Below are positions 25,199 to 40,102 of a stretch of 64,000 nt of DNA, piece after piece. Every line of letters begins with the position of its first letter. The first letter of the stretch is position 1. Under the pieces are notes generated by a model that was given only the letters and a program-made list of their open reading frames with translations, was not told the DNA's origin and did not search any database. Source of the stretch: an uncultured Nitrospiraceae bacterium (GTDB lineage Bacteria; Nitrospirota; Nitrospiria; Nitrospirales; UBA2166). Location of the stretch: assembly GCA_964463965.1 (NCBI GenBank), contig CAYXED010000004.1, positions 124,758 to 188,757 of the forward strand, in the 5' to 3' direction. The position numbers were made by a program, and so were the translations under genes.

Positions 25199-25272
25199 TG
25201 GGGGATCGTCTAATGGCAGGACGGCAGACTCTGACTCTGTCTATCAAGGTTCGAATCCTTGTCCCCCAGCCA
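25199..25272 (+). tRNA. tRNA-Gln (anticodon CTG)
   Basis: Acceptor TGGGGGA/TCCCCCA, anticodon arm GCAGA-CTCTGAC-TCTGT, T-loop GTTCGAATC, encoded CCA. Confidence 0.97.
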
Positions 25273-25921: not shown

Positions 25922-27688
25922 GTGATAGCACAAAATAGCGTTATGTGCAGACTTTTACTCTCCGCTGCCGTATTGAGCTTTTTATTGGTGGCGGGTTGTA
26001 TTGAGGGTGAGCAAGGCCCAGCAGGCCCAGCAGGAGCCACAGGAGCCACAGGAGCTACTGGCGTTGGGCTTCCAGGCCCAGCAGGATCCCCTGGAACACC
26101 AGGAATTCAGGGCCCAGCAGGCGCTGCGGGCGCTGCGGGCAGCACAGGCGCTGCGGCACCGCTTGCAGCGGGTACAGCGGCAATCTCAGGAAAGCTTATG
26201 AAGGGGCCGATCTCAGGGGCAACGGTAACTGTAAAGGGTTCTGGAGCTGGTTGTACAACTCTCGCGAGTACTCAAAGTGGGGCCCCGCTCACATGTAATA
26301 TTGCTGTAGGAAACCTTGCGTCGACTGCGGTGAGTTTGGCAGATGGTACTTACACCGCTACCATCAATTCCTCGTACACTGGTCCTATCATTGTTGAGGC
26401 GGTTGGTGGAACATATGTTAACGAAGTTGATGGTACTACTGAGACTGGGCCGGGGGCCACAACCCCGTTGCGTGCAGTGGTTGCCACTGCTCCTACGGTG
26501 GGAACGACCGCTACAGTGAATCTTACACCGTTGACCACTATGGCGGCAGGCAGAATTTTCTCCCAGACCGGTGTCTTGGCTATTCCAGCTACCACTATCA
26601 CGTCTGCGACCACTCTGGTGCAGAGCATGTACGGTATTACTAATATTAATGCAGAACCGATTGACGTGAATGCAGCTCTTCCGGCTGGCTCAACTGTGCA
26701 GACGCAGCAGTATGGGCTTCTTACCGCAGCGTTTTCTCAACAGGCTGCCACGTTAGCGATTGCAAACCCGCTTGATTTCCTGAATGCCGTTGTGAATGAC
26801 TTTAATGACGGTGTCCTGGATGGAAAAGTTGCGGCGTCAACAGCCATTATCCCGCTAGGAGCGACGGCGGCTTTATTGTCCACTGCAGCAGCAAATGATC
26901 TCTCGACAGCTATGACCAATTTCACAGTGGCCAGTGCAGCGAGAAATCTTGCTGGCGTGGCCGTGGATACAACTGTAGCAGCCACAGTAAATGCTGCGGA
27001 TGAGACTTCGATAGCAAACAGTAAGTTGACCTTTACAACGGTTGCCAATGGAATCACCTTGACAGATGCCGTCAATAGTCGTGCACAGTTGATCAGCACT
27101 GTCACCGGTACGACAGCCAACGCAGCAGCGGTTGCTACTATGACGGCAGCTAGTGTCAAAGTCGTTGTTCCGTTTGCCGTTGTTGAGGGTTCGGTTGCGA
27201 CGACAGTTCCGTTTAGCGTGACGATTTGTCCGACTGCAGCGCTCAATTCTGTGACGTGTAGTACGACTGATAAGCGTAAAATGACGGTGACGTTGAGTAA
27301 ATTGACGCTTACCCCATCAGGTAATTCGGTGATTGCATCGATTCCAACTGATTCGACTGTAAACTACTCGGGAGCTACAGATACCAATGGAACGGCGGTG
27401 GCAGCGCTTGCGACAGCACTCGTTCCTACGACGATTTTCACGACGTCGACCACATTGCCAAATCAACTGACCTTTGATCCTAATGCGCTCAAAACGCAAT
27501 TGGCTGCAACGTCTGTGGCTGCGTTTGACGCCGTGGTCACAACCGGAAACTGGACCTACTCGGTTGCGCCGGGAGTAACGACGTATTATAGGACTCCAGG
27601 TGTGGCGCTAACTTGCACAGCAGCGGATGTTACTGCTGCAGCTTGTAAGCAGACTACGCTTATTCAAGGACCTGTAAACACGAGTTAA
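25922..27688 (+). CDS. Collagen-like surface lipoprotein 1 (Ala/Thr-rich)
   Basis: RBS GGAGG; lipobox LVAG|C; 16 Gly-X-Y triplets with one break; SGK..KGPI domain; no known family recognised for the remainder. Confidence 0.85.
   Translation: MIAQNSVMCRLLLSAAVLSFLLVAGCIEGEQGPAGPAGATGATGATGVGLPGPAGSPGTPGIQGPAGAAGAAGSTGAAAPLAAGTAAISGKLMKGPISGATVTVKGSGAGCTTLASTQSGAPLTCNIAVGNLASTAVSLADGTYTATINSSYTGPIIVEAVGGTYVNEVDGTTETGPGATTPLRAVVATAPTVGTTATVNLTPLTTMAAGRIFSQTGVLAIPATTITSATTLVQSMYGITNINAEPIDVNAALPAGSTVQTQQYGLLTAAFSQQAATLAIANPLDFLNAVVNDFNDGVLDGKVAASTAIIPLGATAALLSTAAANDLSTAMTNFTVASAARNLAGVAVDTTVAATVNAADETSIANSKLTFTTVANGITLTDAVNSRAQLISTVTGTTANAAAVATMTAASVKVVVPFAVVEGSVATTVPFSVTICPTAALNSVTCSTTDKRKMTVTLSKLTLTPSGNSVIASIPTDSTVNYSGATDTNGTAVAALATALVPTTIFTTSTTLPNQLTFDPNALKTQLAATSVAAFDAVVTTGNWTYSVAPGVTTYYRTPGVALTCTAADVTAAACKQTTLIQGPVNTS
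26006..26155 (+). repeat. Collagen Gly-X-Y coding repeat
   Basis: 9-bp period units such as GGCCCAGCA and GGAGCCACA. Confidence 0.9.
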
Positions 27689-27734
27689 TATAAGGTTCTA
27701 TTGACAGCCCGGGTATTGGGCGAGACTTATCAAT

Positions 27735-27775
27735 CGAGGGGCTCACTCTTTTATGGAGTGAGCCCCTCGTTGTTT
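27735..27775 (+). terminator. Intrinsic terminator
   Basis: Perfect 14-bp stem CGAGGGGCTCACTC/GAGTGAGCCCCTCG, loop TTTTATG, then TTGTTT. Confidence 0.85.
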
Positions 27776-27820
27776 ATCACCAGTTGACAGACAGAATAGA
27801 GTTGCGTATGAGAAGTCGTT

Positions 27821-29560
27821 ATGAGTACTAGATTGAAAATTATGTTAACTGGCCTGCTTGTGCTCCTGACCGTTACTCCTGGAGTGACATGGGCAGGAAA
27901 GATAAAAGTTGTGCCACTACAAAACCCCAACCCTCAGATAATCTCTTGGTTTGGTTGGTCAGTCCAATCTGTTGGTGACTTGAATGGTGACGCAGTCCCT
28001 GATTTGGCGGTGAGCGCACCTCAGCAGTCGGTGAGCGGCATTGCTCAGCAAGGGACGGTACGCATTTTTTCAGGAGCCGATAGAACCTTTCTTTTTACGT
28101 TAGATAGCCCCGTATCTGGGTTTGGCGCGATCTTTGGAGAAGCAATACGCGCAGTGGGTGATGTAAATGGTGATGGACGCCCTGATATTCTGGTCGGTGC
28201 ACGTCTTCAGAGTATTGATGGAAATGATGGGCAAGGTCAGGCGTATGTGTTTTCTGGTATGGATGGGAGCTGGTTAGGAGTGACATTAAAGGCCCCTATT
28301 CCTCAGGGAGGGGCATTTTTTGGAGCGGCATTAGCAACAATCAATGATCAAAATCAAGATGGAAAGCGGGATGTTATCGTTGGTGCTCCTCAGCAGTCAT
28401 TTGGGGACAATCAAAGTGAAGGTGCGGTGTTTGTGATGTCACCGGTAAATGGGCAATTGCTTTCGATTCTCTTGCATCCTAACCCTCAAACTAGGGCCTC
28501 ATTTGGCTTTGCCGTCGAATCACTTGGTGACGTTAATGGGGACGCGGTAACAGACTTTGCTGTTTCAGCCCCTTTCCAAATAGTGGAGGGACGTCCTTCT
28601 CAGGGACAGGTATACGTGTTCTCAGGTGCGAACAGGCAACGGTTGTACACGCTTAATACTCCAGAACCAATCCCAAGTGCGCGTTTTGGCTTTGCCGTCG
28701 CTGCAATGGGAGATGTGAATAACGATGGTATTGGCGATATTCTTGTTGGAGCCCCTACGGCCGATCTTCCATCCATTCGCAACGCTGGACGAGCGTTTAT
28801 CTCTTCGGGTGCAGATGGGACAGTTTTGCACGTCCTTAATGATCCATCTCCAGTAGAAAATGGGATGTTCGGGGCAGCACTTGCCTCGCCAGGTGATTTT
28901 GATGGGGATGGGGTTACAGATGTTGCGATTGGCGCTCCAGCGCCGGTAAGCAGTAGTCAGGGAGTATTTAGCACTGGGGAGGTGTTGCTGTTTAGCGGAG
29001 CCACGGGCAACCATTTGCTGACCGTGAATGATCCTTCGCCTGAATCGGGATCGACCTTTGGTTTTTCGATAGTAGGAGCGGGAGACGTTGATAAGGATGG
29101 AGTCTCCGACTTGTTAATTGGGGCGCCATTTCATGACGTTACTGTTGATGGCACGGTGGTAGAATCGGTAGGCAATGCCTTTGTTTTTAGGAAACTGTCA
29201 CCCGACCTCAAAGGGAAAATTATTGAAGTCGTGAATACGACAGATGTATCTGGGCAAGATCGTTTATTCTTCACGGTGGAAGTGAAAAATAAAGGGACAG
29301 TCAAAACGACTGTGCCATTTAGGATCAAAGCTCATATTTCAAATGACTCTGTTTACGATGGTGGAAAGATTGACCCAAAGCTCGAAAAATGGAAAATATC
29401 GCAACCATTGCTCCCCGGAGAAAAAGTGGTTCTTGATGGGGCGGTAGCATTTGATGAATCTGTAGCTGGAAAGTTTTTTATTTTGAGGGTAGATCCTAGT
29501 AAAAAAATCAAGGAAGGTAAGGAGAAGAACAACACAAAGAGTATCAGAATCGTCCGCTGA
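27821..29560 (+). CDS. Secreted FG-GAP (integrin-alpha-like) 7-blade propeller + CARDB-like domain
   Basis: Signal peptide; seven FG...D[NDK]xDG...GAP-type repeats with Ca-binding loops; C-terminal PDL...V.N.G...E..E.NN domain. Confidence 0.9.
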   Translation: MSTRLKIMLTGLLVLLTVTPGVTWAGKIKVVPLQNPNPQIISWFGWSVQSVGDLNGDAVPDLAVSAPQQSVSGIAQQGTVRIFSGADRTFLFTLDSPVSGFGAIFGEAIRAVGDVNGDGRPDILVGARLQSIDGNDGQGQAYVFSGMDGSWLGVTLKAPIPQGGAFFGAALATINDQNQDGKRDVIVGAPQQSFGDNQSEGAVFVMSPVNGQLLSILLHPNPQTRASFGFAVESLGDVNGDAVTDFAVSAPFQIVEGRPSQGQVYVFSGANRQRLYTLNTPEPIPSARFGFAVAAMGDVNNDGIGDILVGAPTADLPSIRNAGRAFISSGADGTVLHVLNDPSPVENGMFGAALASPGDFDGDGVTDVAIGAPAPVSSSQGVFSTGEVLLFSGATGNHLLTVNDPSPESGSTFGFSIVGAGDVDKDGVSDLLIGAPFHDVTVDGTVVESVGNAFVFRKLSPDLKGKIIEVVNTTDVSGQDRLFFTVEVKNKGTVKTTVPFRIKAHISNDSVYDGGKIDPKLEKWKISQPLLPGEKVVLDGAVAFDESVAGKFFILRVDPSKKIKEGKEKNNTKSIRIVR

Positions 29561-29585
29561 GTACCGAAGCGGTTATATTGGCCAC

Positions 29586-30662
29586 CTACCTGTCTTTGGT
29601 ATTGCCAATCACGCTACCGTGAGTTTGCTCGCCGCGGGATAATTTTTGTCTGACAGCCGCGCTTTTCAAATAGTATAGTATATTTTCTTGGTTCATGAGG
29701 ACGCGGAGTAATGTGTCGCCTAAAAATCCTGTGATGAGAGTTGATACACCGAGCAACGTAAATGACCCTCCGACAAAGCCTGCCCAAATGTGAGGGGAAA
29801 ATGCTTGTGTTTCGATGTAATGGATTCCGAGAAAACCAAGAAAGCCCAATCCTGTTGCGAGAAAGAGAAAGCTCACTGCAACAAAAAATCTTAGCGGGTG
29901 GTAAGCAATAAACGCACGAATCATGATTTGCAATGTTTGCACGGCGTATCTTGTAATGCTCGATGTCATTCTTGATGTACCGTGCTCACGGGTTCCTTTC
30001 ACGCGGACTGGCACTTCAATAATTGCTAATCGCTTTACGACGAGATCAAGAAAAGTTTCCTGCGTATAGGTAAAGCGGCCAAACAGGGTCATGCGGAGCA
30101 TCGCTTCTCGTGAGAATGCTCGAAAGCCACAGGAAACGTCATGAAAAGATTTGCCAGTTAACAGCCTAACTGTTAGTGCGAGCCCACGGTTTCCCCAATA
30201 TTTAATCAATGGCATTTTTGGCACAAGTTCCGGATTGATAAAACGTGACGCTGTGGCCATGTGAGCGCTGCTTTTCACAATAGGGGCCACAAGAGTGGGG
30301 ATGTCTGTTGGATCAAACTGACCATCTCCATCTATGTGGATCAGGACGTCGATTCCACGTATCAGCGCAACGCTAACTGCTTCACGAAATGTTATGCCGA
30401 GACCAAGGTTAGTGGTGTGGCTGATCACTTCAGCTCCAGCTGCACGTGCTCGATTGACGGTTTCATCAGATGACCCGTCATCAATGACAAGTACTTGTAT
30501 GCTGCTGATTCCTGGAATATTTTTTGGAATGTTTTTAATCACCCTACCAACAGTCTGTTCTTCGTTTAGGCAAGGAATGACGACGAGTGCTGATTTGTAG
30601 TATTGATCATGGAGTGATGGTGAAGCTATATTTTCCGTGAATTGTTCGGATTGGAGTGACAT
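29586..30662 (-). CDS. GT2 glycosyltransferase, polyprenol-phosphate-sugar synthase (DPM1/GtrB)-like
   Basis: IPCLNEE, IDDGSSD, IDGDGQFDP (DxD), ASRF, DVSCGFRAF; two C-terminal TM helices. Confidence 0.85.
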   Translation of the reverse strand: MSLQSEQFTENIASPSLHDQYYKSALVVIPCLNEEQTVGRVIKNIPKNIPGISSIQVLVIDDGSSDETVNRARAAGAEVISHTTNLGLGITFREAVSVALIRGIDVLIHIDGDGQFDPTDIPTLVAPIVKSSAHMATASRFINPELVPKMPLIKYWGNRGLALTVRLLTGKSFHDVSCGFRAFSREAMLRMTLFGRFTYTQETFLDLVVKRLAIIEVPVRVKGTREHGTSRMTSSITRYAVQTLQIMIRAFIAYHPLRFFVAVSFLFLATGLGFLGFLGIHYIETQAFSPHIWAGFVGGSFTLLGVSTLITGFLGDTLLRVLMNQENILYYLKSAAVRQKLSRGEQTHGSVIGNTKDR

Positions 30663-30923
30663 TTTACTGTTCGCGGTGTGGAGAGACCTAACGCCTTAAG
30701 TGATACTTGTTTTGAGTTAGTCTGGCTTGACCATTGTGAATACCAAGTATAGTGATCATACCTCACGTGTTGTCGTAATGACAGCATATTTTGCTAAACA
30801 GGAAACAGGAAGCAAGAAAAAGAGGGACGAGGTTTCTAAAAACTCATTACGGATGCTGTGGGAAGTTTCCCGTACATGTGAGGATGTTTTTGGTATGAGT
30901 TGTCAAAAAGGGTGTAGCTTCTG

Positions 30924-33080
30924 ATGAGTGTTTCTTTCCTCTATTGGGCTAGGCCGCTTTCATTGCTTGTGTTTGTGGGGGCAATATATTGGAGCTCACT
31001 TAACGGTCCTTTTGTTTTTGACGATTGGCATGTCATTGCTGAAAATCCATCGATTCGACAACTGAACAACATTCCGCTTTTCTTCGTTGATCAAACTCAT
31101 TTCTCGATATTAAGTGGCAATCAAGGATATCGCCCGATCTTTTTAACATCGATGGCCTTGTGTTGGTGGGCTGGTGGTGGTGCGCCCTTGCCTTTTCACC
31201 TACTTAGCATGGTGCTTCACGCCAGTAATGCATTTTTACTGATACTGATTTGTTGTGTGGCATTCACAAAATCCAGTGATCCTAAAGGAGGACTATCCAG
31301 CTCCTCTGTAGAGTGGGGAGCGTGGTTATCGGGGGCTCTATTTGCGCTCCATCCGCTCGCTACAGAGTCAATCAATTACGCCAGTTCTCAATCGGTACCT
31401 CTCGCAAGTGCATTTTTTCTCATAAGTCTCTACCTGTTTATGGCAGTCTATAGCGGGGCGGAATCCTTTTCTAGGAGGGCAAAATGGGTGTATCTTTGCG
31501 TATGCTACGTGTCCTATGGGCTTGCGCTACTTAGTAAGCCGATAGCTATTTCTCTTCCAGTAATCGTCTTACTTTGGGAGTTTTTGGGGCATTACGTACA
31601 TGAAAGTATCCAGAAGGCGTGGAAGCAATGGTGGAAAGCACATTGGAAGAGATTTGTCCCATATGTGGTTATTTCAATGGCATACTTATGGGTGCGGTCT
31701 GCCGTGGTGTTGGGGCCGTTTGGCGGCCCAGAGTTTATAAGGCCAATTTTTGATCACTACCTGACTCAGACCAAAGCACTAGTTTTTTACTACCTCAAGC
31801 TCTCACTCTTGCTAGGAAAGCAAAACGTCGATGTGGTGTATTCGATTTCGAACTCCCTATTTGATCTACAAGTTATCGCCGCACTTGTTTTTCTGTGCGG
31901 AATCATTTGGACTTTAGTTTTGTTTAGGCATCAACGTAATGTTGTTTTCTGGTCGCTGTGGTTTCCTGTCTGTCTTTTTCTCACTACTTATGGGGTAGTT
32001 CTTCGCCAAGTTGTAAATGAGCATCGGGTATATCTGTCTCTTGCCGGACTGTGTGCCTTGTTTGGATTTCTTGCCGTCAAGGGTTGGGAGCAATTGCAAT
32101 CTAGTGGTGTTGTATTTGGGCAGCGTAAAGTTTTGTCGTATGCAGCTTCTTTTGGAGTTGTGATTGGTCTTATGGGGATGGCTTACCATGCCAGTGCACG
32201 AAGCAATGTATGGGAATCACGATTAACGTTGTGGGGAGACGCAGCACGCAATGGGGGTACATGGCGAGCGCACATGAACTATGGGATTCAATTGCGAGGA
32301 ATGGGGCGCTTACAGGAGTCGGCAGAGTGGCTTGAAAGGGCTGTGGAAAATGGACCTTACGCTTTTGCACACATTAATTTGGGATTAACGTATTTTGAGT
32401 TGGGGGAAACCGATGAAGCTTTGGGACATTTGTATAGTGCAACTATGGGGTGGCCGATGGCTCCAGAGCCATGGTTTTATCTTGGGTACGTTCAGAATAA
32501 AATTGGGGATTATGTGCGAGCTGAATTGAACTACCTTCGCGCACTTAAGCTGAGGCCACGATATCTTACAGCGCTACGAGAATTGGCAGACTTTTATGCT
32601 GCACAAAAACTTCAGGAGGATGAAAGGATCGTGTTGCAGTACATTCTTGCGCTTGATTCGACTCAGTTATGGGCTAGGAGTCGTATCGGTGAGTTTGAAA
32701 ATTTTCAGTCATCTCTGGATTCTACGGCATCTGCCCGTCTATTTACGCAAGCGTTGTTGTTGCAGCATTTGGGTAGTTCAGATTTAGCAATCCAACGATA
32801 TGAGAGACTTTTGTTACATGAACCAGGTCATAGGCAGGGAACGTTTAATCTTGCCTATGCGTATATGTTGCAGGGTGGTTCTGGTTCCCTGATTAAAAGT
32901 GCTGGATTGTTTAAGAAAGTGCTAGAAATTGAACCGTTGTATGTGGAAGCGCTCCACCATCTGGCAACAGTATTATGGAAGGTAGGAGAAAAAGAAGAAG
33001 CAATAGTGTACGATATGAAGTACTTGGAAAAGGGCCAGCATGTTGACTTGAGGAAGCTTTCAAAAACTCGCCTTCAGTAG
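30924..33080 (+). CDS. TMTC-like GT-C membrane glycosyltransferase with C-terminal TPRs
   Basis: FVFDD, YRPI, FHLL..LHA.N, LFALHPLATE, EHRVYL, W.....LW, then TPR helices; multiple TM segments. Confidence 0.82.
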   Translation: MSVSFLYWARPLSLLVFVGAIYWSSLNGPFVFDDWHVIAENPSIRQLNNIPLFFVDQTHFSILSGNQGYRPIFLTSMALCWWAGGGAPLPFHLLSMVLHASNAFLLILICCVAFTKSSDPKGGLSSSSVEWGAWLSGALFALHPLATESINYASSQSVPLASAFFLISLYLFMAVYSGAESFSRRAKWVYLCVCYVSYGLALLSKPIAISLPVIVLLWEFLGHYVHESIQKAWKQWWKAHWKRFVPYVVISMAYLWVRSAVVLGPFGGPEFIRPIFDHYLTQTKALVFYYLKLSLLLGKQNVDVVYSISNSLFDLQVIAALVFLCGIIWTLVLFRHQRNVVFWSLWFPVCLFLTTYGVVLRQVVNEHRVYLSLAGLCALFGFLAVKGWEQLQSSGVVFGQRKVLSYAASFGVVIGLMGMAYHASARSNVWESRLTLWGDAARNGGTWRAHMNYGIQLRGMGRLQESAEWLERAVENGPYAFAHINLGLTYFELGETDEALGHLYSATMGWPMAPEPWFYLGYVQNKIGDYVRAELNYLRALKLRPRYLTALRELADFYAAQKLQEDERIVLQYILALDSTQLWARSRIGEFENFQSSLDSTASARLFTQALLLQHLGSSDLAIQRYERLLLHEPGHRQGTFNLAYAYMLQGGSGSLIKSAGLFKKVLEIEPLYVEALHHLATVLWKVGEKEEAIVYDMKYLEKGQHVDLRKLSKTRLQ

Positions 33081-33286
33081 CTGTAGGGGCGCGATTTGTT
33101 TTGTTGTTAACGTTAGGTACTTCAAGAGATTGTTGATTTTATGTGGTGCATTGCATATGAGGTTTGGAGTGGTTTTGTTTTTTGGGGAGACTAGTGGGGT
33201 TTTGTCAGAATCTTTGAGAAGCTAAAATGCGATCTTGTGGGAGGTTGGGGAAAAAATGGAACATGAAAGAAAAACCAAAATTTTCC

Positions 33287-33315
33287 TTGACATGGGGCGT
33301 ATCGATATAGATAAT
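33287..33315 (+). promoter_or_regulatory. Strong sigma70 promoter for collagen-like lipoprotein 2
   Basis: TTGACA-N17-GATAAT; second TTGACA-N17-CAAAAT at 33373-33401. Confidence 0.6.
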
Positions 33316-33548
33316 GCGCTAGCCGTCGAGGCGGGTGGCGTGCGCGATTTGCATCCACGGGCAATTTTTTTCTTGACAGTGGATGATGCTTAACTCAAAA
33401 TGCGTTCGTCATTTCCTTCGGGCGGCTTGTGCTATGGAAATGAGTGGCCTTAGAAAATGAACGGGGGGGAAATGGGAAAGGAACATGAGGTTCAACCATG
33501 TTGTTAGGTAACAGAGAATGGAATCATCAAATAAGGAGGATTGAACCA

Positions 33549-35633
33549 ATGGGGAGAATGAGAGCGACGGGGAAAACCGGACGAGCATCTTCAGGCTTCT
33601 TGCTTGTGCTGGGTGCTGTGGCGCTTGGTTTGGTGCTGGTAGGATGTTCTGGTGAAGATGGGTTGGTTGGTCCTGCAGGGCCGGCCGGACCTCCAGGACC
33701 AGCTGGAGCAGTAGGACCGGCGGGTGCTGATGGTGCCGCAGGGGCAGCAGGACCAGCGGGTGCACGTGGTGCAGCAGGACCAGCAGGACCAGCAGGACCA
33801 TCGGGTCCAGCAGGTGCTGATGGATCCGCAGGATCCGCAGGAGCTGCAGGAGCTGCAGGAGCTGCAGGATCTGGCACTGTTGTTCCGGGTGCTGCGTTAG
33901 CATCAGGAAAGGCCATTAAAGGGCCTATCGTTAATGGAACTGTTGTTCTGTCTATTTATGCGGACAACAATGGGGGAACCTGCCCAACTGTCGCCCCAAC
34001 GACAGTAGTGGGTACTTCAGGTGCCCTTGAGCGTTGCACTATTGGTGCTTCTGGAACGACGGACGCAAATGGTGGTTTCGCGCTGACCATTCCAGATGAC
34101 CAGTCTTCGTTGGTTGGTCCGCTTCACGTGGAAGTCTTTAACGGGACATTCATCGACGAAGTGACCGGTTTGACCAACACTGGGCCGCAGGGACCTGGAA
34201 TTAACTCGAAGCTGCGTACTCTCGTTCCGCTTGAGTACTTGGATGATCTGAGACCAGCCGGTGGTGCTGCGAACGTTGTCACTGTGGCTATTAGCGCCTT
34301 GACTGAGTTGGCCGCGACAAGAGCTCTTGGGGCTGGTACTGGAACCCCAACCGCTGGTCAGGCGCATGCTGCCAATACTCAAACAGCATCGCTCTTTTCT
34401 TTGGACGATATTGATATTGCCAGAACGCTTCCTTCGGATATCACGAATCCTGCTTCATCTTCTGATTCCGATGAATCAAAGCGTTATGGTATTGTCAATG
34501 CCGCTTTCTCTCAGCTAGCTCAGGTCGTCGAGGGTGACCAAGACGTCCTGGATATCGTGAGAGTTGTTGGTCTTGACTATCAAGATGGTATTTTTGATGC
34601 TAAGGGACGTCTTACGAGTCCTTCTGATGCTGCTCTGACGTTACCGGGTGCTTCCAGGAAGATTCCGGCGGCTACCATGGGGCCAACATTGGCAGCAGCT
34701 ATTGAAACCATTCAGTCGAGTTCGGTAAACAATACCGGCACCACGCTTGATGCAGCGGCTGTAGCGACCGTTCGTGGCGCACATCTCGCTTCAAATAACA
34801 TTCTGACTTTGACCGATAACGGCTGTATCGTGGCAGATGCACGGTTGCCTTCTGGTTCGTTTATCTTTACGCGTGCTATCTCTACGGGTATTGCGACACT
34901 GCGTAACGCATTTGGTGGTAATGGTTCGGTGGATGGCTCTGGTTTTCGCGCCGTTGGTACCGACAATAACGCAAATACCTTTTTCTCTGCGCAGTCTGTG
35001 AATATTCGTTGTGTCTTGGCAAACTTCTCACAGGGTGCCACCGCGCTTGGTGATCGTGGTTCTGGACAGATTACCGTCAGTCCTCGGTTTACCATTCGTG
35101 ATGCGACAGCTGACGATGCCACCAATAGTCTCGCGGCTGCAGCGCACGGAACCGGTTCTAAGAGAACTGTCACCGGTACTTTGTCTGCTATGACAATCAA
35201 CAACAACCCAACGGGTGTAACTGGGTCTCAGCCTGAGGGTACGACTATCACAATTACCGGTATGCGTGATGTCAATGGCAGCACCATCAGAATTGACACG
35301 CCACTTCCGCCATCATCGATCCTGAACCAGGGCGGAAATGTTGTTCGGTTTGTTCCGAATGCGTTGATTGGTGCTCTAAGTGCCAAGGGATTATCGCAAT
35401 TTGATACTCTGGCGAAGGACGGTATTTTTGTCTATGAAGTGACACCGGGCTTCCCAGTATACTTGCATGCCAATGCTGGCAGCACGACTGAGAGCAATGC
35501 ACCACCGGCGGCCCGTCCACAGACCTGTAATGGTAATCCGGATGGAACGACGACTACGAGTGGTACTGGTTTCAGTGGTACATCGTGTGTCAGTGTTACA
35601 ACAGTCAGAGGATCTTTGGAGGTCAAGCAGTAA
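33549..35633 (+). CDS. Collagen-like surface lipoprotein 2 (paralog of 25922-27688)
   Basis: RBS AAGGAGGA 8 nt before ATG 33549; lipobox LVG|C; 25 uninterrupted Gly-X-Y triplets; SGKAIKGPI domain. Confidence 0.85.
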   Translation: MGRMRATGKTGRASSGFLLVLGAVALGLVLVGCSGEDGLVGPAGPAGPPGPAGAVGPAGADGAAGAAGPAGARGAAGPAGPAGPSGPAGADGSAGSAGAAGAAGAAGSGTVVPGAALASGKAIKGPIVNGTVVLSIYADNNGGTCPTVAPTTVVGTSGALERCTIGASGTTDANGGFALTIPDDQSSLVGPLHVEVFNGTFIDEVTGLTNTGPQGPGINSKLRTLVPLEYLDDLRPAGGAANVVTVAISALTELAATRALGAGTGTPTAGQAHAANTQTASLFSLDDIDIARTLPSDITNPASSSDSDESKRYGIVNAAFSQLAQVVEGDQDVLDIVRVVGLDYQDGIFDAKGRLTSPSDAALTLPGASRKIPAATMGPTLAAAIETIQSSSVNNTGTTLDAAAVATVRGAHLASNNILTLTDNGCIVADARLPSGSFIFTRAISTGIATLRNAFGGNGSVDGSGFRAVGTDNNANTFFSAQSVNIRCVLANFSQGATALGDRGSGQITVSPRFTIRDATADDATNSLAAAAHGTGSKRTVTGTLSAMTINNNPTGVTGSQPEGTTITITGMRDVNGSTIRIDTPLPPSSILNQGGNVVRFVPNALIGALSAKGLSQFDTLAKDGIFVYEVTPGFPVYLHANAGSTTESNAPPAARPQTCNGNPDGTTTTSGTGFSGTSCVSVTTVRGSLEVKQ
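33651..33875 (+). repeat. Collagen Gly-X-Y coding repeat
   Basis: 25 triplets, including (GCAGGAGCT)x3 at 33837-33863. Confidence 0.9.
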
Positions 35634-35691
35634 GCCAAAGATCTGCTAAGCTGATCGGCGTTTCTTTAGGTCGGTTAGTTTAAGAACATCG

Positions 35692-35730
35692 ATGGGCCTA
35701 CCGTGTTATGCGGTAGGCCCATTTGTTTTT
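35692..35730 (+). terminator. Intrinsic terminator
   Basis: Perfect 12-bp stem ATGGGCCTACCG/CGGTAGGCCCAT, loop TGTTATG, then TTGTTTTT. Confidence 0.88.
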
Positions 35731-36013
35731 ACACTCCACTAAGAACTGTCACAAATTCCTCTACTTTTGCGCTCTCTGTATTAATTCTGTATCCAGATTG
35801 ATACGACAATCTAGGAAAATGTACTAAAAGAGCTACAGTGGCCAGGTTTTGATAGGTGGAGTTTTCTTTCCCCTGCGGGACTGACTCGTATTCTTCTTTG
35901 TTAATACGGTATTTTAAGGTTGCAATGTGTAAAACTATATACATATTTGAATTGGCATATAATATGCATACATATTGGTCAGTATTTCTTTTTCAAGTAG
36001 AACATTAAATTAG

Positions 36014-36075
36014 AGTGACAAACTTACGACACATTACGACAAAAGTTTGACATTTTATGTGGCACCGCGTATGGT
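36014..36075 (+). promoter_or_regulatory. Sigma70 promoter with four helically phased GACA repeats overlapping -35
   Basis: GACA at 36017, 36028, 36038, 36049; TTGACA(36047)-N17-TATGGT(36070). Confidence 0.55.
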
Positions 36076-36218
36076 AGGCGGACTTGTATATAGGTGGGTA
36101 GGCAATCGGGGGGATGGTCTATCTAAATATTAAGCAATTTGTGGACATGTAAATCATATCGGAGACGTATGGCAGATGTGCTTTTATCTGGCCAGCCTGA
36201 TTTCTAGGAGGAGTAACG

Positions 36219-39200
36219 ATGCGAAGTAGATGGATTGTGGGTAGATCGCTGTGTATGTGGGCAATTGGAGTGGCCCTTTTGTTGGGCTCGGTGAGTACTG
36301 TCGTAGGGCAGACCTTTACAGCAACTGGGAGTTTGTCATCTTCACGTACTTTCCACACTTCGACTCTTCTGACTGATGGTCGAGTACTTATTGTTGGTGG
36401 TGGAAGTACTGCTACAGCGGAATTATATGATCCAACTATTGCAGGGTTTCTCCAGGCAGGAACTTTGGCAACAGCACGGACGCTTCATAGTGCAACCTTG
36501 TTAATCAATGGTAAGGTGCTTGTTGCGGGTGGTGGAACATCTGGAGCCGCCACAGCTGAACTCTACGATCCCTTAACGGCATCGTTTTCGGTAACGGGTT
36601 CAATGCTTTCTGACCGAAGCAATCATACTGCTACGTTGTTACCAAGTGGTGACGTGTTAATTCTTGGTGGTATGAGTGCAGATGGCCGCGCGCTTGCCAC
36701 AGCGGAGCTTTATGATCCAGATACGGAAACTTTTGTCTCGAGTGGCGTGATGTCTACTGCCCGTATGTTCCATGCGGCGTCGCTACTTTCAGATGGGAGG
36801 GTATTGATTGCTGGAGGTTTTGATAACTCGGGCAGCACCGTTGGCACTGCAGAGGTTTTTGATCCTGTAACACGAACGTTTTCAAGTACAGGAAGCATGA
36901 CGGCAGCACGTAGTAATCACACTGCCACGTTGTTATCAAGTGGACAGGTGGTAGTTGCCGGAGGTTTAGGCACGGGAAGTATTACTTTGAATACGAGTGA
37001 AGTCTATGATCCGACAACAGGATCGTTTACTGCGACAGGAACAATGAGTAGTACTCGAAGTCACCATACAGCAACACGTTTAGCAAATGGGCAAGTGTTG
37101 CTTGTTGGAAGTCTGGAAGGAACAGCTAGCGCAGAAATTTTTGATCCAACGACGTCAACTTTTTCTCCTACTGTTAGTTTAGTCTCTGCACGGTCATTTC
37201 AAGGGGCTACTCTGTTGTTGAGTGGACAGGTGTTAATTACAGGAGGTGGGCAGTCGGGGACGACCGCTGAGCTTTTTGATGCACCTAATGTGTTTGAGCC
37301 TTCAGTTGTTAGCGTGCTTGGTCCGCTTGAAGGAGGATTTACCTCAACAATCAGCAACATGGGTGCAGCACGGCAGAGCCACACAGCCACTCTCTTATCA
37401 AGTGGGGGGGTACTTGTCTCAGGAGGCTTGGGTGGCGGAGGCAGTACTGCGGAGGTGTATGATTCACCTACAGAGAGTTTTGTGCCGGTCGGAAGTATGA
37501 CTACGTCTCGCACAGAACATACGTCAACTGAGTTGCGAGATGGGCGTGTTCTGATTGTTGGCGGTGCAGTTGGTGATGACACACCAGCCGAATTATTTGA
37601 TACTTCGACAGACACCTTTACAGGCACTGGTCTGATGGTCACCGAACGGCGACGGCACACTGCCTCGGCGTTATCAGATGGCCGGGTGTTAATAGCCGGC
37701 GGACGTAGTCAAGATGGCGTGGTGCTTGCATCGTCTGAAATCTATGATCCATCTACGGAATCGTTCGGTGAGGGCGATAGTATGGATGCGGCTAGAAGTT
37801 TGCATACTGCCACGACGCTATCTGATGGGACCATTCTTGTTGTCGGGGGAAATGACTCCGATGGTTTTCCAGTACGAAGTGCTGAAATTTTTGACCCTGT
37901 GACTGGGATATTCTCTTCGACGGGTAGTCTAGGCACTGCGCGTGCTCGCCATACCGCTACATTATTGGAAACCGGTGAGGTTCTTGTGACGGGTGGGGTT
38001 GGTGCTTCAGTAAGTGCAGAGGTCTTCAATCCAAGTACAGGGCAGTTCACTCAGGTTGGCAGTTTGGTAGAGGCAAGAGAAAATCATACTGCAACACGTC
38101 TTTCGAGTGGGCATGTTCTTTTAATCGGTGGAAACTTAAGTCTAGATGCTGAGTTCTACAATCCGTCTACAGCACAGTTTGAGGCGGTTGTGAATATGAT
38201 GACTGATTCTCGTCAAATGCACACGGCAACGTTACTACAAACCGGACGAGTGCTCGTCGCAGGAGGTATTGGAATTCTTGAGACTGCAGAGCTTTTCGCT
38301 CGTAATACGCCTGACGTTAATCTGATAATTACAAAGCTACGCGTTAAACCAAAACAGTCTGGGAACAAGCTAAAGGTTATATTACAAGCTCAAAACTCTG
38401 GTACGGAAGTTGCGGTTGGACCACTGGTAGCTTCCTTGTTCTTGTCGGTAGATGAAATTGTAGATGAGCAGGATGCTCTCCTTCAGACGATTTCTGTCGA
38501 TAGTATTGAGGGTGGGAATCAGGCGAAGCTCAAGTTTAAAGTAAAAGGCCTTGGGAGTATTGGTGGAATGTATGCAGTCGTCAAACTTACTGCTGCTGCT
38601 GGAGAGGAGAATCTTCAGAATAATACAGTCTCAGGGCTTATTGAGGAGTTGCCTCAGTCTGTCATTGTTACTCGTTCTGGAGACGGCTTTGGCACGGTTA
38701 CCAGCAGTCCTGATGGAGTAGCATGTGGAGAAATTTGTATTGCAAGCTTTGCTCCGAACGAAAATTTAGTTTTAACAGCAACAGCTGACCAAGGCTCAAC
38801 CTTTGGAGGATGGGGTGGAGACGAGTGCGACATTTCGTTGATCGCAGAAGACTTCAAGTCTGGAACATGTGAGTTTCTTCCATTGCTCAAGGAGCGGTCA
38901 GTAAATGGGCTCTTTACACTTGACTTCTCGCCAGCCGTAACGCTTGGATTGACCGTGATTGGTTCTGGTAATATTTCGAGTATACCTGGAAACTTGTTAT
39001 GCGGAACGACGGATCAGCCGGTGTGTAATGGTACCTTTGACCAGGGCAGTGTCGTGGTTCTTACGGCAACGCCAGATCCAGGAAATGAATTCATTTCTTG
39101 GAGTGGTGGTGGGTGTGGAGGCGCCGGACTTTGCTCTGTGACTATGGGTCAGAGTCATTCCGTGGTTGCTGAGTTTGCGGTGAGTACAGCCACGACGACA

Positions 39201-40031
39201 CCGACTACAACCACGACGACACCGACCACAACCACGACGACACCGACCACAACCACTGCGTCATTGACCATCACAACAAGTGGTACTGGCACTGGATCGA
39301 TTGTGAGTGTACCTACAGGGATTTCATGTGGTCTGGATTGTACAGAAACGTACACTATTGGAACTAATGTTTCACTAACCGCTACTGCAGCTGCTGGATC
39401 AACTTTCACTGGATGGACGGGTGGAGGCTGTGTCGGAACCGGATTGTGTGTTGTTTCGATGTCAGCGTTGACAACCGTCACAGCCCAATTTACAAGCAGT
39501 GTAGGTACAACCACTAACCTGACGGTGACTGAAATACGGGAAACCGCAGGTGCAGGAACTATCACAGGGACTGGTATCAACTGTGGAAATGGTGGAGTGT
39601 TGACGGACTGTACGCAGACATTCGATACCAACACCAGCGTGGTTCTGACTGCGACTGTAGGTGCGGACACTACCTTTGTCGGATGGGTAGGCGGTGGATG
39701 TTCGGGGACCTCAACGTGTACGGTGACAATGGATCAGAATCAGGAAGTTCGAGCGGTCTTTGAAAAAAATGAGGTCGATGCAACGTCAAGTCTTCTCAAT
39801 AAGACTTTGGGCGTTGGAATGTCAGGTTTAGGCGCTGGGACCGTAACGGGACTCGATATTAATTGTGGTTCTGACTGCGCACAAAAATACCCAGCAGGCT
39901 CAGTAGTTGTTCTGACAGCAACTCCAGGAGCAGGATCCACGTTTGGTGGCTGGAGTGGGCAGTGTAGCGGCCTAGATCAGTGTGTTGTCATCATGGACGC
40001 TTCTGCAATTGTCAACGCAGTATTTAATTAG
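36219..40031 (+). CDS. Large secreted Kelch (14 repeats) + CARDB-like + InlB B-repeat (x5) protein with Thr-rich linker
   Basis: Signal peptide; 14 R..H[TS]ATLL..G.VL..GG-type repeats; five LTAT...F.GW.G.C repeats; RBS AGGAGG. Confidence 0.9.
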   Translation: MRSRWIVGRSLCMWAIGVALLLGSVSTVVGQTFTATGSLSSSRTFHTSTLLTDGRVLIVGGGSTATAELYDPTIAGFLQAGTLATARTLHSATLLINGKVLVAGGGTSGAATAELYDPLTASFSVTGSMLSDRSNHTATLLPSGDVLILGGMSADGRALATAELYDPDTETFVSSGVMSTARMFHAASLLSDGRVLIAGGFDNSGSTVGTAEVFDPVTRTFSSTGSMTAARSNHTATLLSSGQVVVAGGLGTGSITLNTSEVYDPTTGSFTATGTMSSTRSHHTATRLANGQVLLVGSLEGTASAEIFDPTTSTFSPTVSLVSARSFQGATLLLSGQVLITGGGQSGTTAELFDAPNVFEPSVVSVLGPLEGGFTSTISNMGAARQSHTATLLSSGGVLVSGGLGGGGSTAEVYDSPTESFVPVGSMTTSRTEHTSTELRDGRVLIVGGAVGDDTPAELFDTSTDTFTGTGLMVTERRRHTASALSDGRVLIAGGRSQDGVVLASSEIYDPSTESFGEGDSMDAARSLHTATTLSDGTILVVGGNDSDGFPVRSAEIFDPVTGIFSSTGSLGTARARHTATLLETGEVLVTGGVGASVSAEVFNPSTGQFTQVGSLVEARENHTATRLSSGHVLLIGGNLSLDAEFYNPSTAQFEAVVNMMTDSRQMHTATLLQTGRVLVAGGIGILETAELFARNTPDVNLIITKLRVKPKQSGNKLKVILQAQNSGTEVAVGPLVASLFLSVDEIVDEQDALLQTISVDSIEGGNQAKLKFKVKGLGSIGGMYAVVKLTAAAGEENLQNNTVSGLIEELPQSVIVTRSGDGFGTVTSSPDGVACGEICIASFAPNENLVLTATADQGSTFGGWGGDECDISLIAEDFKSGTCEFLPLLKERSVNGLFTLDFSPAVTLGLTVIGSGNISSIPGNLLCGTTDQPVCNGTFDQGSVVVLTATPDPGNEFISWSGGGCGGAGLCSVTMGQSHSVVAEFAVSTATTTPTTTTTTPTTTTTTPTTTTASLTITTSGTGTGSIVSVPTGISCGLDCTETYTIGTNVSLTATAAAGSTFTGWTGGGCVGTGLCVVSMSALTTVTAQFTSSVGTTTNLTVTEIRETAGAGTITGTGINCGNGGVLTDCTQTFDTNTSVVLTATVGADTTFVGWVGGGCSGTSTCTVTMDQNQEVRAVFEKNEVDATSSLLNKTLGVGMSGLGAGTVTGLDINCGSDCAQKYPAGSVVVLTATPGAGSTFGGWSGQCSGLDQCVVIMDASAIVNAVFN
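39190..39256 (+). repeat. 21-bp tandem repeat (3+ copies) encoding a TTTPTTT linker
   Basis: CCACGACGACACCGAC(T/C)ACAA x3 + CCAC. Confidence 0.92.
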
Positions 40032-40054: not shown

Positions 40055-40102
40055 TACGTTGTGGGTGGAGCCTGCTAATGCTCTGCCTACAACGTAATTT
40101 TT
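40055..40102. terminator. Probable terminator between convergent genes
   Basis: 17-bp stem TACGTTGTGGGTGGAGC/GCTCTGCCTACAACGTA with G-U pairs, then ATTTTT. Confidence 0.7.

What the first reader, a model, noticed from the sequence alone, without database searches (positions are those of the whole stretch)
25922..40031. Candidate self-contained protein O-glycosylation system for eukaryote-like surface proteins
Seen: a divergent GT2 / TMTC-like GT-C pair sits in the middle of four exported proteins: collagen lipoprotein 1, an FG-GAP propeller, collagen lipoprotein 2 and a Kelch/InlB-repeat protein. Three of these are very Thr/Ser-rich, and two carry Ig-like CARDB-type domains. Established: DPM1-like GT2s make lipid-phosphate-sugar donors, GT-C enzymes use them outside the cytoplasm, and animal TMTC1-4 O-mannosylate Ser/Thr on beta-sandwich cadherin domains. 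Inference: donor synthase, transferase and substrates are encoded together, building a glycosylated, matrix-like cell coat (collagen stalks, integrin-like and Kelch propellers). I know of no characterised bacterial TMTC system of this layout.
Basis: partly seen in the sequence, partly recalled or inferred. Interest (0 to 1): 0.82.

Follow-up and report, generated by a model that had tools for sequence, protein, structure and literature searches.

The report
Sugar-transferase pair among collagen-like surface genes
A pair of membrane sugar-attaching enzymes has moved into a conserved cluster of collagen-like and propeller surface-protein genes in an uncultured Nitrospirota bacterium, and because related enzyme pairs in other phyla also sit beside collagen-like genes, these fibres are a plausible but unproven target.

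Summary
The genes are there as described. Two collagen-repeat lipoproteins, an FG-GAP propeller and a Kelch/InlB-repeat protein surround a divergent pair. One member is a GT2 of the polyprenyl-phosphate-sugar synthase type (ArnC/DPMS-like). The other is a 718-aa GT-C with an invariant DD loop and a C-terminal TPR domain.

"Self-contained system" is not supported:
- The pair belongs to a four-gene cassette found across phyla: SAM methyltransferase, flippase-like membrane protein, GT2 and GT-C/TPR.
- In this genome the methyltransferase and membrane protein lie on another contig, at the ancestral site.
- Congeners keep the same four surface genes at the same tRNA-Gln slot with no GT pair anywhere.
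- No link to FG-GAP or Kelch genes recurs.

One part of the idea gains independent support. Collagen-like (G-X-Y, often G-P-T) secreted proteins lie within 10 kb of this enzyme clade in 5 of 15 other loci. The figure is 1 of 60 for other-clade and random control loci (Fisher p about 0.001).

Best reading: a split three-component periplasmic glycosylation cassette whose catalytic pair relocated beside likely collagen-like acceptors. The sugar, the acceptor and the activity are all untested. This is a new variant of a known kind, of moderate to high interest.

The parts
25199..25272 (+). tRNA-Gln(CTG). It marks the left edge of the genus-conserved slot that holds the surface-protein cluster.
   Evidence: ARAGORN. 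The same tRNA sits after the prepilin peptidase gene in G001 and G002.
25922..27688 (+). Collagen-repeat lipoprotein 1 (A, 588 aa). It has 16 G-X-Y triplets followed by a Thr/Ala-rich domain with no Pfam match.
   Evidence: Pfam Collagen 2.6e-07. Lipobox LVAGC read by eye. No Pfam hit for residues 80-588. Orthologue in G002 at 46-50% identity. Terminator-like hairpin at 27735-27769.
27821..29560 (+). Secreted seven-blade FG-GAP propeller with a C-terminal CARDB-like domain (B, 579 aa).
   Evidence: FG-GAP 7.7e-53; CARDB 1.1e-4, at threshold. Orthologue in G002 at 55% identity.
29586..30662 (-). GT2 polyprenyl-phosphate glycosyltransferase-like enzyme (C, 358 aa), with a GT-A domain and two C-terminal hydrophobic helices. 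Predicted lipid-phosphate-sugar donor synthase.
   Evidence: PF00535 9e-20. Best NCBIfam hits are AglJ 1.9e-34, PpgS, Dol-P-hexose transferase and ArnC, all below equivalog cut-offs. Aligns over residues 23-322 with ArnC 9bhc (3.5e-11) and with DPMS 5mlz. Hydrophobic segments at about 250-280 and 296-314. Orthologues at 60-68% identity sit next to the GT-C in 10 other loci.
30663..30923 (.). 261-bp divergent intergenic region between the GT2 and the GT-C; presumed shared promoter region.
   Evidence: Gene coordinates. Promoter-like site on the minus strand at 30784-30755. The same divergent arrangement occurs in L001, L003, L024, L043, L045 and L079.
30924..33080 (+). TMTC-like GT-C glycosyltransferase (D, 718 aa). 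Residues 1-445 form the polytopic catalytic domain with invariant D33-D34. Residues 446-718 form about nine TPR-like helix pairs, predicted to be periplasmic.
   Evidence: AF2 pLDDT 92.7 for the full length and 89.8 for the membrane domain. Foldseek hits: ArnT 5f15 1.6e-5, STT3 6ezn 7.7e-5, Pmt4 9i5k, AglB 3waj. Invariant residues F30 D33 D34 N41 R70 P144 K205 Y290 R426. TPR Pfam hits. No Pfam hit for residues 1-445.
33281..33401 (+). Two promoter-like boxes upstream of collagen gene 2, conserved with the GT-less congener G002. Gene E therefore keeps its own, older promoter.
   Evidence: TTGACA-17-GATAAT at 33287-33315 and TTGACA-17-CAAAAT at 33373-33401. These blocks are nearly identical in G002 upstream of its collagen-2 gene.
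33498..35633 (+). Collagen-repeat lipoprotein 2 (E, 711 aa; the true start is probably M18 or M21). It has 26 G-X-Y triplets and is a paralogue of A.
   Evidence: Pfam Collagen 9.2e-11. Lipobox LVGC read by eye. 37% identity to A over 362 aa. G002 orthologue at 59% identity. Terminator-like hairpin at 35691-35723.
36219..40031 (+). Secreted Kelch propeller(s) plus four to five InlB B-repeat (Flg_new_2) domains (F, 1270 aa).
   Evidence: Kelch_4 6.8e-57 and Flg_new_2 5.4e-28. G002 orthologue at 47% identity, on the opposite strand. Promoter-like site at 36047-36075 and terminator-like hairpin at 40055-40096.
39192..39257 (+). Poly-Thr/Pro linker TTTPTTTTTTPTTTTTTPTTTT in F (residues 992-1013). 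This is the most mucin-like candidate O-glycosylation tract in the cluster.
   Evidence: Composition scan. The G002 orthologue has only STTPTP.

Best explanation
The GT2 and the GT-C/TPR protein are the catalytic core of a three-component-type periplasmic glycosylation cassette.

Inferred steps:
1. On the cytoplasmic face, the GT2 loads a sugar from a nucleotide sugar onto polyprenyl phosphate.
2. A flippase-like membrane protein, encoded with a SAM methyltransferase on another contig (G000:C13), brings the lipid-linked sugar to the periplasmic face.
3. The GT-C uses its DD loop to transfer the sugar to an acceptor held by its periplasmic TPR domain.

Shown by comparison: in relatives the four genes are adjacent. 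In this genome the GT2/GT-C pair has left that site and now lies between the FG-GAP gene and the collagen-2 gene of an older, genus-conserved surface-protein cluster.

Most likely acceptors (inferred): Ser/Thr of secreted collagen-like proteins, here lipoproteins A and E. The poly-Thr linker of F is a secondary candidate. The TPR domain would bind the extended chain before it folds. The modification is accessory, not essential to these proteins. The sugar is unknown.
For: Enzyme types:
- The GT2 aligns end to end with ArnC and DPMS and matches AglJ/PpgS-type NCBIfam models.
- D has the GT-C_A fold with high model confidence, an invariant DD and TMTC-like motifs (PMC7801869).

Cassette:
- Methyltransferase, 313-340-aa membrane protein, GT2 and GT-C occur together in L001, L005, L024, L043, L045, L079 and L141.
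- Partial sets occur in L003, L007, L076, L078 and L140.
- Several of the membrane partners match PF03706 LPG_synthase_TM.
- This genome's own 313-aa version shares the PGGLGVRE motif with them (hhalign E = 6e-5).

Split and relocation:
- G000:C13 carries the methyltransferase and the membrane protein directly abutting LplB and HhH-GPD.
- Relatives have the GT2 and GT-C between them.

Collagen link:
- G-X-Y ORFs lie within 10 kb of D-clade genes in L001, L006 (51 bp away), L007 (the only large collagen gene in a 5.8-Mb genome), L045 and L078. That is 5 of 15 loci.
- The comparison figures are 1 of 40 other-clade GT-C loci and 0 of 20 random loci from the same phylum. Fisher p = 9e-4.
- The neighbours have signal peptides or lipoboxes and many G-P-T triplets.

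Precedent: in the S. mutans Pgf system, a GT2, GT-C enzymes and their adhesin substrates are encoded in one cluster (PMC12041528).
Against: - G002 (90% complete) and G004 (96% complete) keep the collagen lipoproteins but lack the GT2, the GT-C and the membrane partner. Glycosylation is therefore dispensable for these proteins.
- Ser/Thr content of the four proteins is the same in G002 as here.
- A and E have short collagen tracts (16 and 26 triplets) with only 4 and 2 Ser/Thr at the Y position. The G-P-T-rich neighbours elsewhere are quite different.
- Ten of 15 D-clade loci have no collagen-like gene nearby.
- The collagen sample is small and the loci are not phylogenetically corrected. Accessory envelope genes may also cluster in flexible regions for reasons unrelated to function.
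- E keeps its own promoter, conserved with G002, and each surface gene has its own terminator. Nothing suggests co-transcription with the GT pair.
- No expression or glycan data exist.
Confidence: 0.5

Rival explanations
1. The cassette modifies a non-protein envelope component, such as lipid A, LPS core, peptidoglycan or an exopolysaccharide, as ArnC/ArnT and Gtr systems do. Its position among the surface-protein genes would be an accident of rearrangement in a flexible region.
For: - The top fold hit is ArnT, and the GT2 aligns best with ArnC.
- Some cassette loci carry glycan-type neighbours: a GT4 in L077 and L142, an exosortase fragment in L078, UDP-GlcNAc 2-epimerase in L043 and an NAD-dependent epimerase in L140.
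- Ten of 15 loci have no collagen gene.
- Congeners keep the surface proteins without the enzymes.
Against: - ArnT, Gtr and similar glycan or lipid modifiers have no TPR domain. A roughly 270-aa periplasmic TPR array is a protein- or peptide-binding module, as in TMTC and OGT.
- The ArnT fold hit does not discriminate, because it is also the closest solved homologue of the TMTCs.
- The collagen adjacency is significantly enriched.
Confidence: 0.25
2. The enzyme pair carries out general O-glycosylation of many exported proteins with Ser/Thr-rich or disordered tracts, like actinobacterial Ppm1/Pmt or streptococcal GtrB/PgtC2. The neighbouring four proteins would be at most a few of many targets.
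For: - It is the only GT-C of this family in a 1.9-Mb genome.
- The cassette usually sits among unrelated housekeeping genes.
- There is precedent for broad-specificity GT2/GT-C protein glycosylation (PMC12041528; PMC5882110, listed).
Against: - The clade is rare and patchy. It was found in 1 of 400 Planctomycetota sampled and is absent from two of four congeners. A general housekeeping pathway would not be distributed like this.
- The wider family occurs as several paralogues per genome, often in tandem. That pattern suggests narrow specificities.
- The collagen adjacency is specific to this clade.
Confidence: 0.2
3. After separation from the methyltransferase and flippase-like genes, the relocated pair is a decaying or inactive remnant.
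For: The cassette is split between two contigs.
Against: - Both ORFs are intact, and every family-invariant residue is retained in D.
- A 97%-identical environmental contig keeps both genes intact.
- The partner genes on C13 are also intact.
Confidence: 0.03

Closest known systems
Animal TMTC1-4 protein O-mannosyltransferases (GT-C/PMT clan; Pfam TMTC_DUF1736 plus TPR)
   Same: - Both have an N-terminal polytopic GT-C domain followed by a C-terminal TPR array on the non-cytoplasmic side.
- Both have a DD motif in the first loop.
- D carries LFALHPLATE, SKP and NEHRVY motifs that correspond to TMTC's LFAVHPIHT, K219 and AERV (PMC7801869).
- In both cases the closest solved structure is ArnT.
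   Different: - D has no PF08409 (DUF1736) match.
- It is bacterial and uses a dedicated adjacent GT2 donor synthase.
- The sugar is unknown.
- The suggested acceptors are collagen-like stalks, not cadherin beta-sandwich domains.
- Only distant relatives (24-30% identity) match PMT_2 or DUF1736.
Streptococcus mutans Pgf system (PgfS GT2, PgfE, PgfM1/PgfM2 GT-C) and streptococcal GtrB/PgtC2
   Same: A GT2 makes an undecaprenyl-phosphate sugar. A GT-C then transfers it outside the membrane to Ser/Thr-rich tracts of surface proteins. In Pgf the adhesin substrates (Cnm, CnaB, CbpA) are encoded in the same cluster (PMC12041528). The GT2 here also hits the PgfS model weakly (3.9e-8).
   Different: The Pgf and PgtC2 GT-Cs are YfhO-type enzymes without TPR domains, in monoderm Firmicutes. 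Here the enzyme is a TMTC-like TPR protein in a diderm Nitrospirota, the cassette adds a methyltransferase and a PF03706-like membrane protein, and the substrate link is statistical only.
Three-component periplasmic glycosylation systems (GtrA/GtrB/Gtr*, ArnC/ArnE-F/ArnT and relatives; PMC11127046)
   Same: The logic is the same: a polyprenyl-phosphate GT2, a flippase and a GT-C transferase. The GT2 aligns end to end with ArnC, and the fold of D is closest to ArnT.
   Different: Those systems modify O-antigen, lipid A or other glycans and have no TPR domain. Their flippases are GtrA or EmrE-like, not PF03706-like.
BclA-type collagen-like glycoproteins of the Bacillus cereus group (from my own knowledge, not checked here)
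   Same: Both are bacterial collagen-like proteins. In BclA the G-X-T triplets carry O-linked sugars, and the collagen-like neighbours of this enzyme clade are rich in G-P-T.
   Different: BclA is, as far as I recall, glycosylated by soluble cytoplasmic-type transferases during sporulation, not by a lipid-linked GT-C pathway. A and E here have few Thr in their triplets.

Membership tests
TMTC family (animal TMTC1-4; Pfam PF08409 plus TPR) | N-terminal multi-span GT-C domain followed by C-terminal TPR repeats | tested here: met
   TPR Pfam hits cover residues 449-717. The AF2 model shows about 11 long membrane helices followed by a TPR solenoid. The fold matches GT-C_A enzymes.
TMTC family (animal TMTC1-4; Pfam PF08409 plus TPR) | Conserved DD motif in the first extracytoplasmic loop | tested here: met
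   D33 and D34 are invariant across 50 homologues down to 22% identity. The motif definition comes from PMC7801869.
TMTC family (animal TMTC1-4; Pfam PF08409 plus TPR) | Match to the TMTC_DUF1736 loop model (PF08409) | tested here: not met
   Residues 1-445 match no Pfam family at E <= 10. One distant relative, P0111, matches PF08409 (9.9e-8), and others match PMT_2.
TMTC family (animal TMTC1-4; Pfam PF08409 plus TPR) | Transfers mannose from a polyprenyl-phosphate-mannose donor to Ser/Thr of protein domains | not testable with these tools
   This needs biochemistry. The GT2 reaches no equivalog-level match that would name the sugar.
GT-C_A fold glycosyltransferases (ArnT, STT3/PglB/AglB, PMT) | Structural similarity of the membrane domain to solved GT-C_A enzymes | tested here: met
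   Foldseek with the membrane-domain model gives ArnT 5f15 E = 1.6e-5, STT3 6ezn 7.7e-5, Pmt4 9i5k 4.2e-3 and AglB 3waj 5.4e-3, with query-normalised TM-scores (TMq) of 0.42-0.52. A sequence profile finds no PDB match.
Polyprenyl-phosphate glycosyltransferases (GtrB/ArnC/DPMS-type GT2) | GT-A catalytic domain with acidic motifs, followed by two C-terminal transmembrane helices | tested here: met
   PF00535 covers residues 27-188. Residues 23-322 align with ArnC 9bhc, and DPMS 5mlz also matches. Hydrophobic segments lie at about 250-280 and 296-314. The DDGSSD and DGDG motifs were read by eye in the translation.
Three-component periplasmic glycosylation system | A dedicated flippase for the lipid-linked sugar | tested here: inconclusive
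   The candidate is the 313-aa membrane protein on G000:C13, which co-occurs with the cassette. It has no Pfam or NCBIfam hit itself. Profile comparison with PF03706-type neighbours gives only 65% probability, E = 6e-5. It is not encoded in the window.
Bacterial collagen-like proteins (PF01391) | Uninterrupted G-X-Y repeats above Pfam's gathering score in a secreted protein | tested here: met
   A scores 30.7 bits and E 41.8 bits against a cut-off of 27.2. A has 16 triplets and E has 26. The lipoprotein signal peptides were read by eye.
Substrate-plus-enzyme glycosylation cluster (Pfg-like, i.e. S. mutans Pgf-type: enzymes and acceptors inherited together) | Linkage of enzymes and proposed acceptors conserved in other genomes | tested here: inconclusive
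   - The four-protein set is not linked. G002, G003 and G004 have the surface genes, and G002 and G004 lack the enzymes.
- Collagen-like genes as a class are linked: 5 of 15 D-clade loci against 1 of 60 controls.

The most novel reading that the evidence does not exclude
This clade of bacterial TMTC-like GT-C/TPR enzymes, with its dedicated GT2, flippase-like protein and methyltransferase, is a dedicated O-glycosylation machine for collagen-like surface stalks. The TPR array would grip the still-unfolded polyproline-II-like G-X-Y chain, much as the TPR-like peptide-binding domain of prolyl 4-hydroxylase does. The DD site would then glycosylate Thr/Ser before the triple helix forms. That would give the large, unannotated bacterial TMTC-like family its first substrate class. 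It would also hint that matrix-protein O-glycosylation by TMTC-type enzymes predates animals.
Probability: 0.3. Interest if true: 0.8.

Novelty: new variant of a known kind. Interest (0 to 1): 0.6.

Why it matters
Bacterial GT-C/TPR proteins of the TMTC type are very numerous. Here 211 of 401 Nitrospirota genomes carry at least one, often several, yet none has a known substrate. In my four literature searches I found no paper that links them to collagen-like proteins.

This locus adds two things:
- A conserved four-gene cassette, which gives a concrete and reconstitutable pathway.
- A statistically supported neighbour class, secreted collagen-like proteins, which gives a testable acceptor.

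If confirmed, it would extend lipid-linked protein O-glycosylation of the Pgf/Pmt kind to diderm environmental phyla. It would also explain how bacterial collagen-like stalks are decorated. If refuted, the cassette is one more envelope-glycan modifier.

Tried and rejected
- **Genomic island at tRNA-Gln.** GC rises to 0.48-0.52 over 26-40 kb. I rejected this because the same four genes occupy the slot in congeners, the GT pair itself has ordinary GC (0.449), and the rise tracks the Gly/Ala/Pro/Thr-rich proteins.
- **Full-length Foldseek search.** It returned only TPR proteins. A second model of residues 1-445 was needed.
- **Sequence and profile search of the membrane domain.** The PDB gave nothing and Pfam gave nothing.
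- **The search for related loci with the alignment.** It failed because no conserved stretch was available. The single protein was used instead. Most metagenome contigs were too short to be informative.
- **Collagen adjacency as a property of the whole GT-C/TPR family.** Rejected: 1 of 40 other-clade loci in the phylum.
- **Search for D-clade orthologues in 400 Planctomycetota.** Only the genome already known turned up. Only two candidates per genome were scored, so absences are soft.
- **Linkage to FG-GAP or Kelch genes elsewhere.** Only weak FG-GAP-like hits appeared, in L034, L046 and L049. I did not pursue these.
- **CARDB in F.** Not confirmed.
- **Precomputed Pfam lists for neighbouring genes.** They missed most collagen-like ORFs. 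My own G-X-Y regular expression was needed.

Full report
**1. What is there**

The window holds six large ORFs between a tRNA-Gln gene (25199-25272) and a lipocalin gene.
- A (25922-27688) and E (33498-35633) are paralogous lipoproteins, 37% identical over 362 aa. Both have short collagen tracts that pass Pfam's threshold. Their long Thr/Ala-rich domains match no Pfam family.
- B (27821-29560) is a seven-blade FG-GAP propeller with a CARDB hit right at the threshold.
- F (36219-40031) has Kelch blades plus InlB B-repeats and a 22-residue poly-Thr/Pro linker.
- C (29586-30662, minus strand) is a GT2.
- D (30924-33080) is a polytopic protein with C-terminal TPRs.

Ser+Thr content is 24% for A, 13% for B, 19% for E and 25% for F. 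A CARDB domain in F could not be confirmed. An independent metagenome contig is 97.3% identical across 29536-33485, so the juxtaposition is real.

**2. The two enzymes**

C aligns from residue 23 to 322 with solved ArnC structures and also matches DPMS. Its best NCBIfam matches are AglJ, PpgS, Dol-P-hexose transferase and ArnC, all well below equivalog cut-offs. It has two C-terminal hydrophobic segments. It is therefore a polyprenyl-phosphate glycosyltransferase of unknown sugar specificity.

D's first 445 residues match no Pfam model at E <= 10, and a profile of them matches no PDB sequence. The AlphaFold models are nevertheless confident, with pLDDT 92.7 and 89.8. The membrane domain matches GT-C_A enzymes: ArnT, STT3, Pmt4, AglB and EmbB.

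Across 50 homologues down to 22% identity, these residues are invariant: F30, D33, D34, N41, R70, P144, K205, Y290 and R426. The motifs FVFDDWH, LFALHPLATE, SKP and NEHRVY correspond to those described for human TMTCs (PMC7801869). Distant relatives match PMT_2, or in one case TMTC_DUF1736.

D is therefore TMTC-like in architecture, fold and motifs, but it is not a member by the Pfam definition. That ArnT is the best fold hit says nothing about the acceptor, because the same is true of the human TMTCs.

**3. The pair is half of a conserved cassette**

Proteins 40-54% identical to D occur sporadically in Nitrospirota, Planctomycetota, KSB1, Pseudomonadota and unclassified MAGs. Next to them, usually divergently transcribed, is the orthologous GT2 at 60-68% identity. 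In most loci there is also a roughly 225-aa class-I SAM methyltransferase and a 313-340-aa membrane protein.

Several of the membrane partners match PF03706 (LPG_synthase_TM, 'flippase-like'). The version found in this lineage shares their PGGLGVRE motif only weakly (hhalign E = 6e-5). The logic is that of the known three-component periplasmic glycosylation systems (PMC11127046), with an added methyltransferase.

In this genome the methyltransferase and membrane protein are on contig C13, directly abutting LplB and HhH-GPD. In relatives (L001; G001 = Nitrospirales bacterium UWMA-0026) the order is methyltransferase, membrane protein, GT2, GT-C, then LplB, HhH-GPD and DNA ligase further downstream in L001; of these downstream genes only the DNA ligase was confirmed in G001. 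The GT2/GT-C pair has therefore left its ancestral site. Identities to congeners (50-66%) are similar to those of the neighbouring prepilin peptidase gene (62-66%). That fits relocation within the lineage better than foreign acquisition.

**4. The surface cluster is older than the pair and independent of it**

Congener G002 has the same gene series: prepilin peptidase, tRNA-Gln, collagen lipoprotein, FG-GAP/CARDB, collagen lipoprotein, Kelch/InlB (inverted) and lipocalin. There is no GT gene between them. G003 and G004 have the collagen lipoprotein at the same slot.

G002 and G004 lack the GT-C membrane domain, the orthologous GT2 and the membrane partner anywhere in their assemblies, which are 90% and 96% complete. 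The collagen lipoprotein family is restricted to this genus among 41 relatives.

Other points against a single unit:
- The promoter-like boxes upstream of E are nearly identical in G002.
- A, E and F each have a strong terminator-like hairpin.
- Ser/Thr content is the same in G002's orthologues, although F's poly-Thr linker is unique to this genome.
- The higher GC of 26-40 kb is compositional and does not indicate an island.

So 'donor, transferase and four substrates encoded together as one system' is not what evolution has conserved.

**5. Collagen-like proteins do recur beside this enzyme clade**

A six-frame scan for 10 or more consecutive G-X-Y triplets within 10 kb of D-clade genes found collagen-like ORFs in five other loci:
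- L001: a lipoprotein with GPTGPT repeats.
- L006: 51 bp after the GT-C.
- L007/L042: a 2564-aa protein.
- L045.
- L078.

That is 5 of 15 loci other than the window. These proteins have signal peptides or lipoboxes and many G-P-T triplets. Collagen genes are rare in the host genomes. The KSB1 genome's only large one is the gene next to the GT-C, and G000's only two flank the pair.

As controls, 40 loci around other-clade GT-C/TPR genes from 40 Nitrospirota genomes gave 1 hit, and 20 random loci from the same genomes gave 0. Fisher's exact test for 5 of 15 against 1 of 60 gives p = 9e-4. Two distant deltaproteobacterial paralogues (L048, L051) also have collagen-like genes immediately downstream.

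The sample is small and not phylogenetically corrected. Ten of 15 loci have no such neighbour, so the link is real-looking but not obligate. After this test I found that earlier notes of this scan report similar pairings in other phyla. They are unchecked AI leads and not independent evidence, but they point the same way. One of them also found the pairing to be clade-specific rather than family-wide.

**6. Mechanism proposed**

Shown: the gene content, folds, motifs and neighbourhood statistics.

Inferred:
1. The GT2 makes a polyprenyl-phosphate sugar.
2. The PF03706-like protein flips it.
3. D's DD site transfers it in the periplasm to Ser/Thr of exported proteins held by the TPR array, with collagen-like stalks as the favoured class.

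The role of the methyltransferase is unknown. Its best but weak matches are UbiG and BioC. Nothing identifies the sugar. Neighbours elsewhere include a UDP-GlcNAc 2-epimerase (L043), an NAD-dependent epimerase (L140) and GT4s. 'O-mannosylation' is therefore unsupported.

Weak points specific to this genome:
- A and E have short tracts with few Ser/Thr in the triplets.
- The proteins exist happily without the enzymes in congeners.

**7. Verdict**

The enzymology is right in kind and the 'self-contained four-substrate system' is wrong, but a narrower link to collagen-like proteins is supported by independent loci.

The closest known systems are the streptococcal Pgf and GtrB/PgtC2 pathways (PMC12041528), three-component Gtr/Arn systems (PMC11127046) and animal TMTCs (PMC7801869). 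My literature searches found no described bacterial TMTC-like system or collagen link. I rate it a new variant of a known kind, with interest 0.6.

Noticed in passing
window 33281-33401; L025 about 8520-8700: Two TTGACA-containing promoter-like blocks upstream of the collagen-2 gene are almost identical between this genome and congener G002, although the surrounding intergenic DNA is unalignable and the proteins are only about 60% identical. This suggests a conserved regulatory region.
   Followed up: partly
window 39192-39257: F has a 22-residue poly-Thr/Pro linker that its G002 orthologue lacks (STTPTP only). G002 also lacks the glycosylation genes. This is a single comparison, so it is suggestive only.
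   Followed up: partly
G000:C13 (L033) 1879-3555: The cassette's methyltransferase and 313-aa membrane protein remain at the ancestral site next to LplB and HhH-GPD, with no gap where the GT2 and GT-C would be. The deletion or relocation was clean.
   Followed up: yes
window 25922-27688 and 33498-35633: The roughly 500-aa domains after the collagen tracts of A and E match no Pfam family. Among 41 relatives they are found only in this genus. They appear to be an unrecognised surface-protein family.
   Followed up: partly
Nitrospirota genomes, e.g. G068:C44:235-261 kb and G052:C7:124-148 kb: The wider GT-C/TPR family is present in 211 of 401 sampled genomes of the phylum. It often occurs as four or more paralogues, sometimes in tandem arrays, which suggests many distinct acceptor specificities.
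   Followed up: partly
L003 5840-15083: In one metagenome locus the cassette is followed by three consecutive PF01663 (phosphodiesterase/sulfatase-type) genes and a second D-clade GT-C/TPR paralogue.
   Followed up: no
L043 7038-8159: In a complete 4.6-Mb Nitrospirales chromosome, a UDP-GlcNAc 2-epimerase gene sits inside the cassette between the flippase-like gene and the GT2. This hints at a ManNAc- or HexNAc-type donor in that organism.
   Followed up: no
L034 (G003:C380) 1-3597: At the ancestral cassette site of congener G003 lie an FG-GAP-like ORF and a Big_5/MopE protein whose C-terminus resembles that of collagen lipoprotein E (28% identity over 215 aa).
   Followed up: no
L006 12163-13551: The collagen-like protein 51 bp downstream of a D-clade GT-C has an N-terminal region that looks like a ricin-type lectin repeat, read by eye only.
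   Followed up: no
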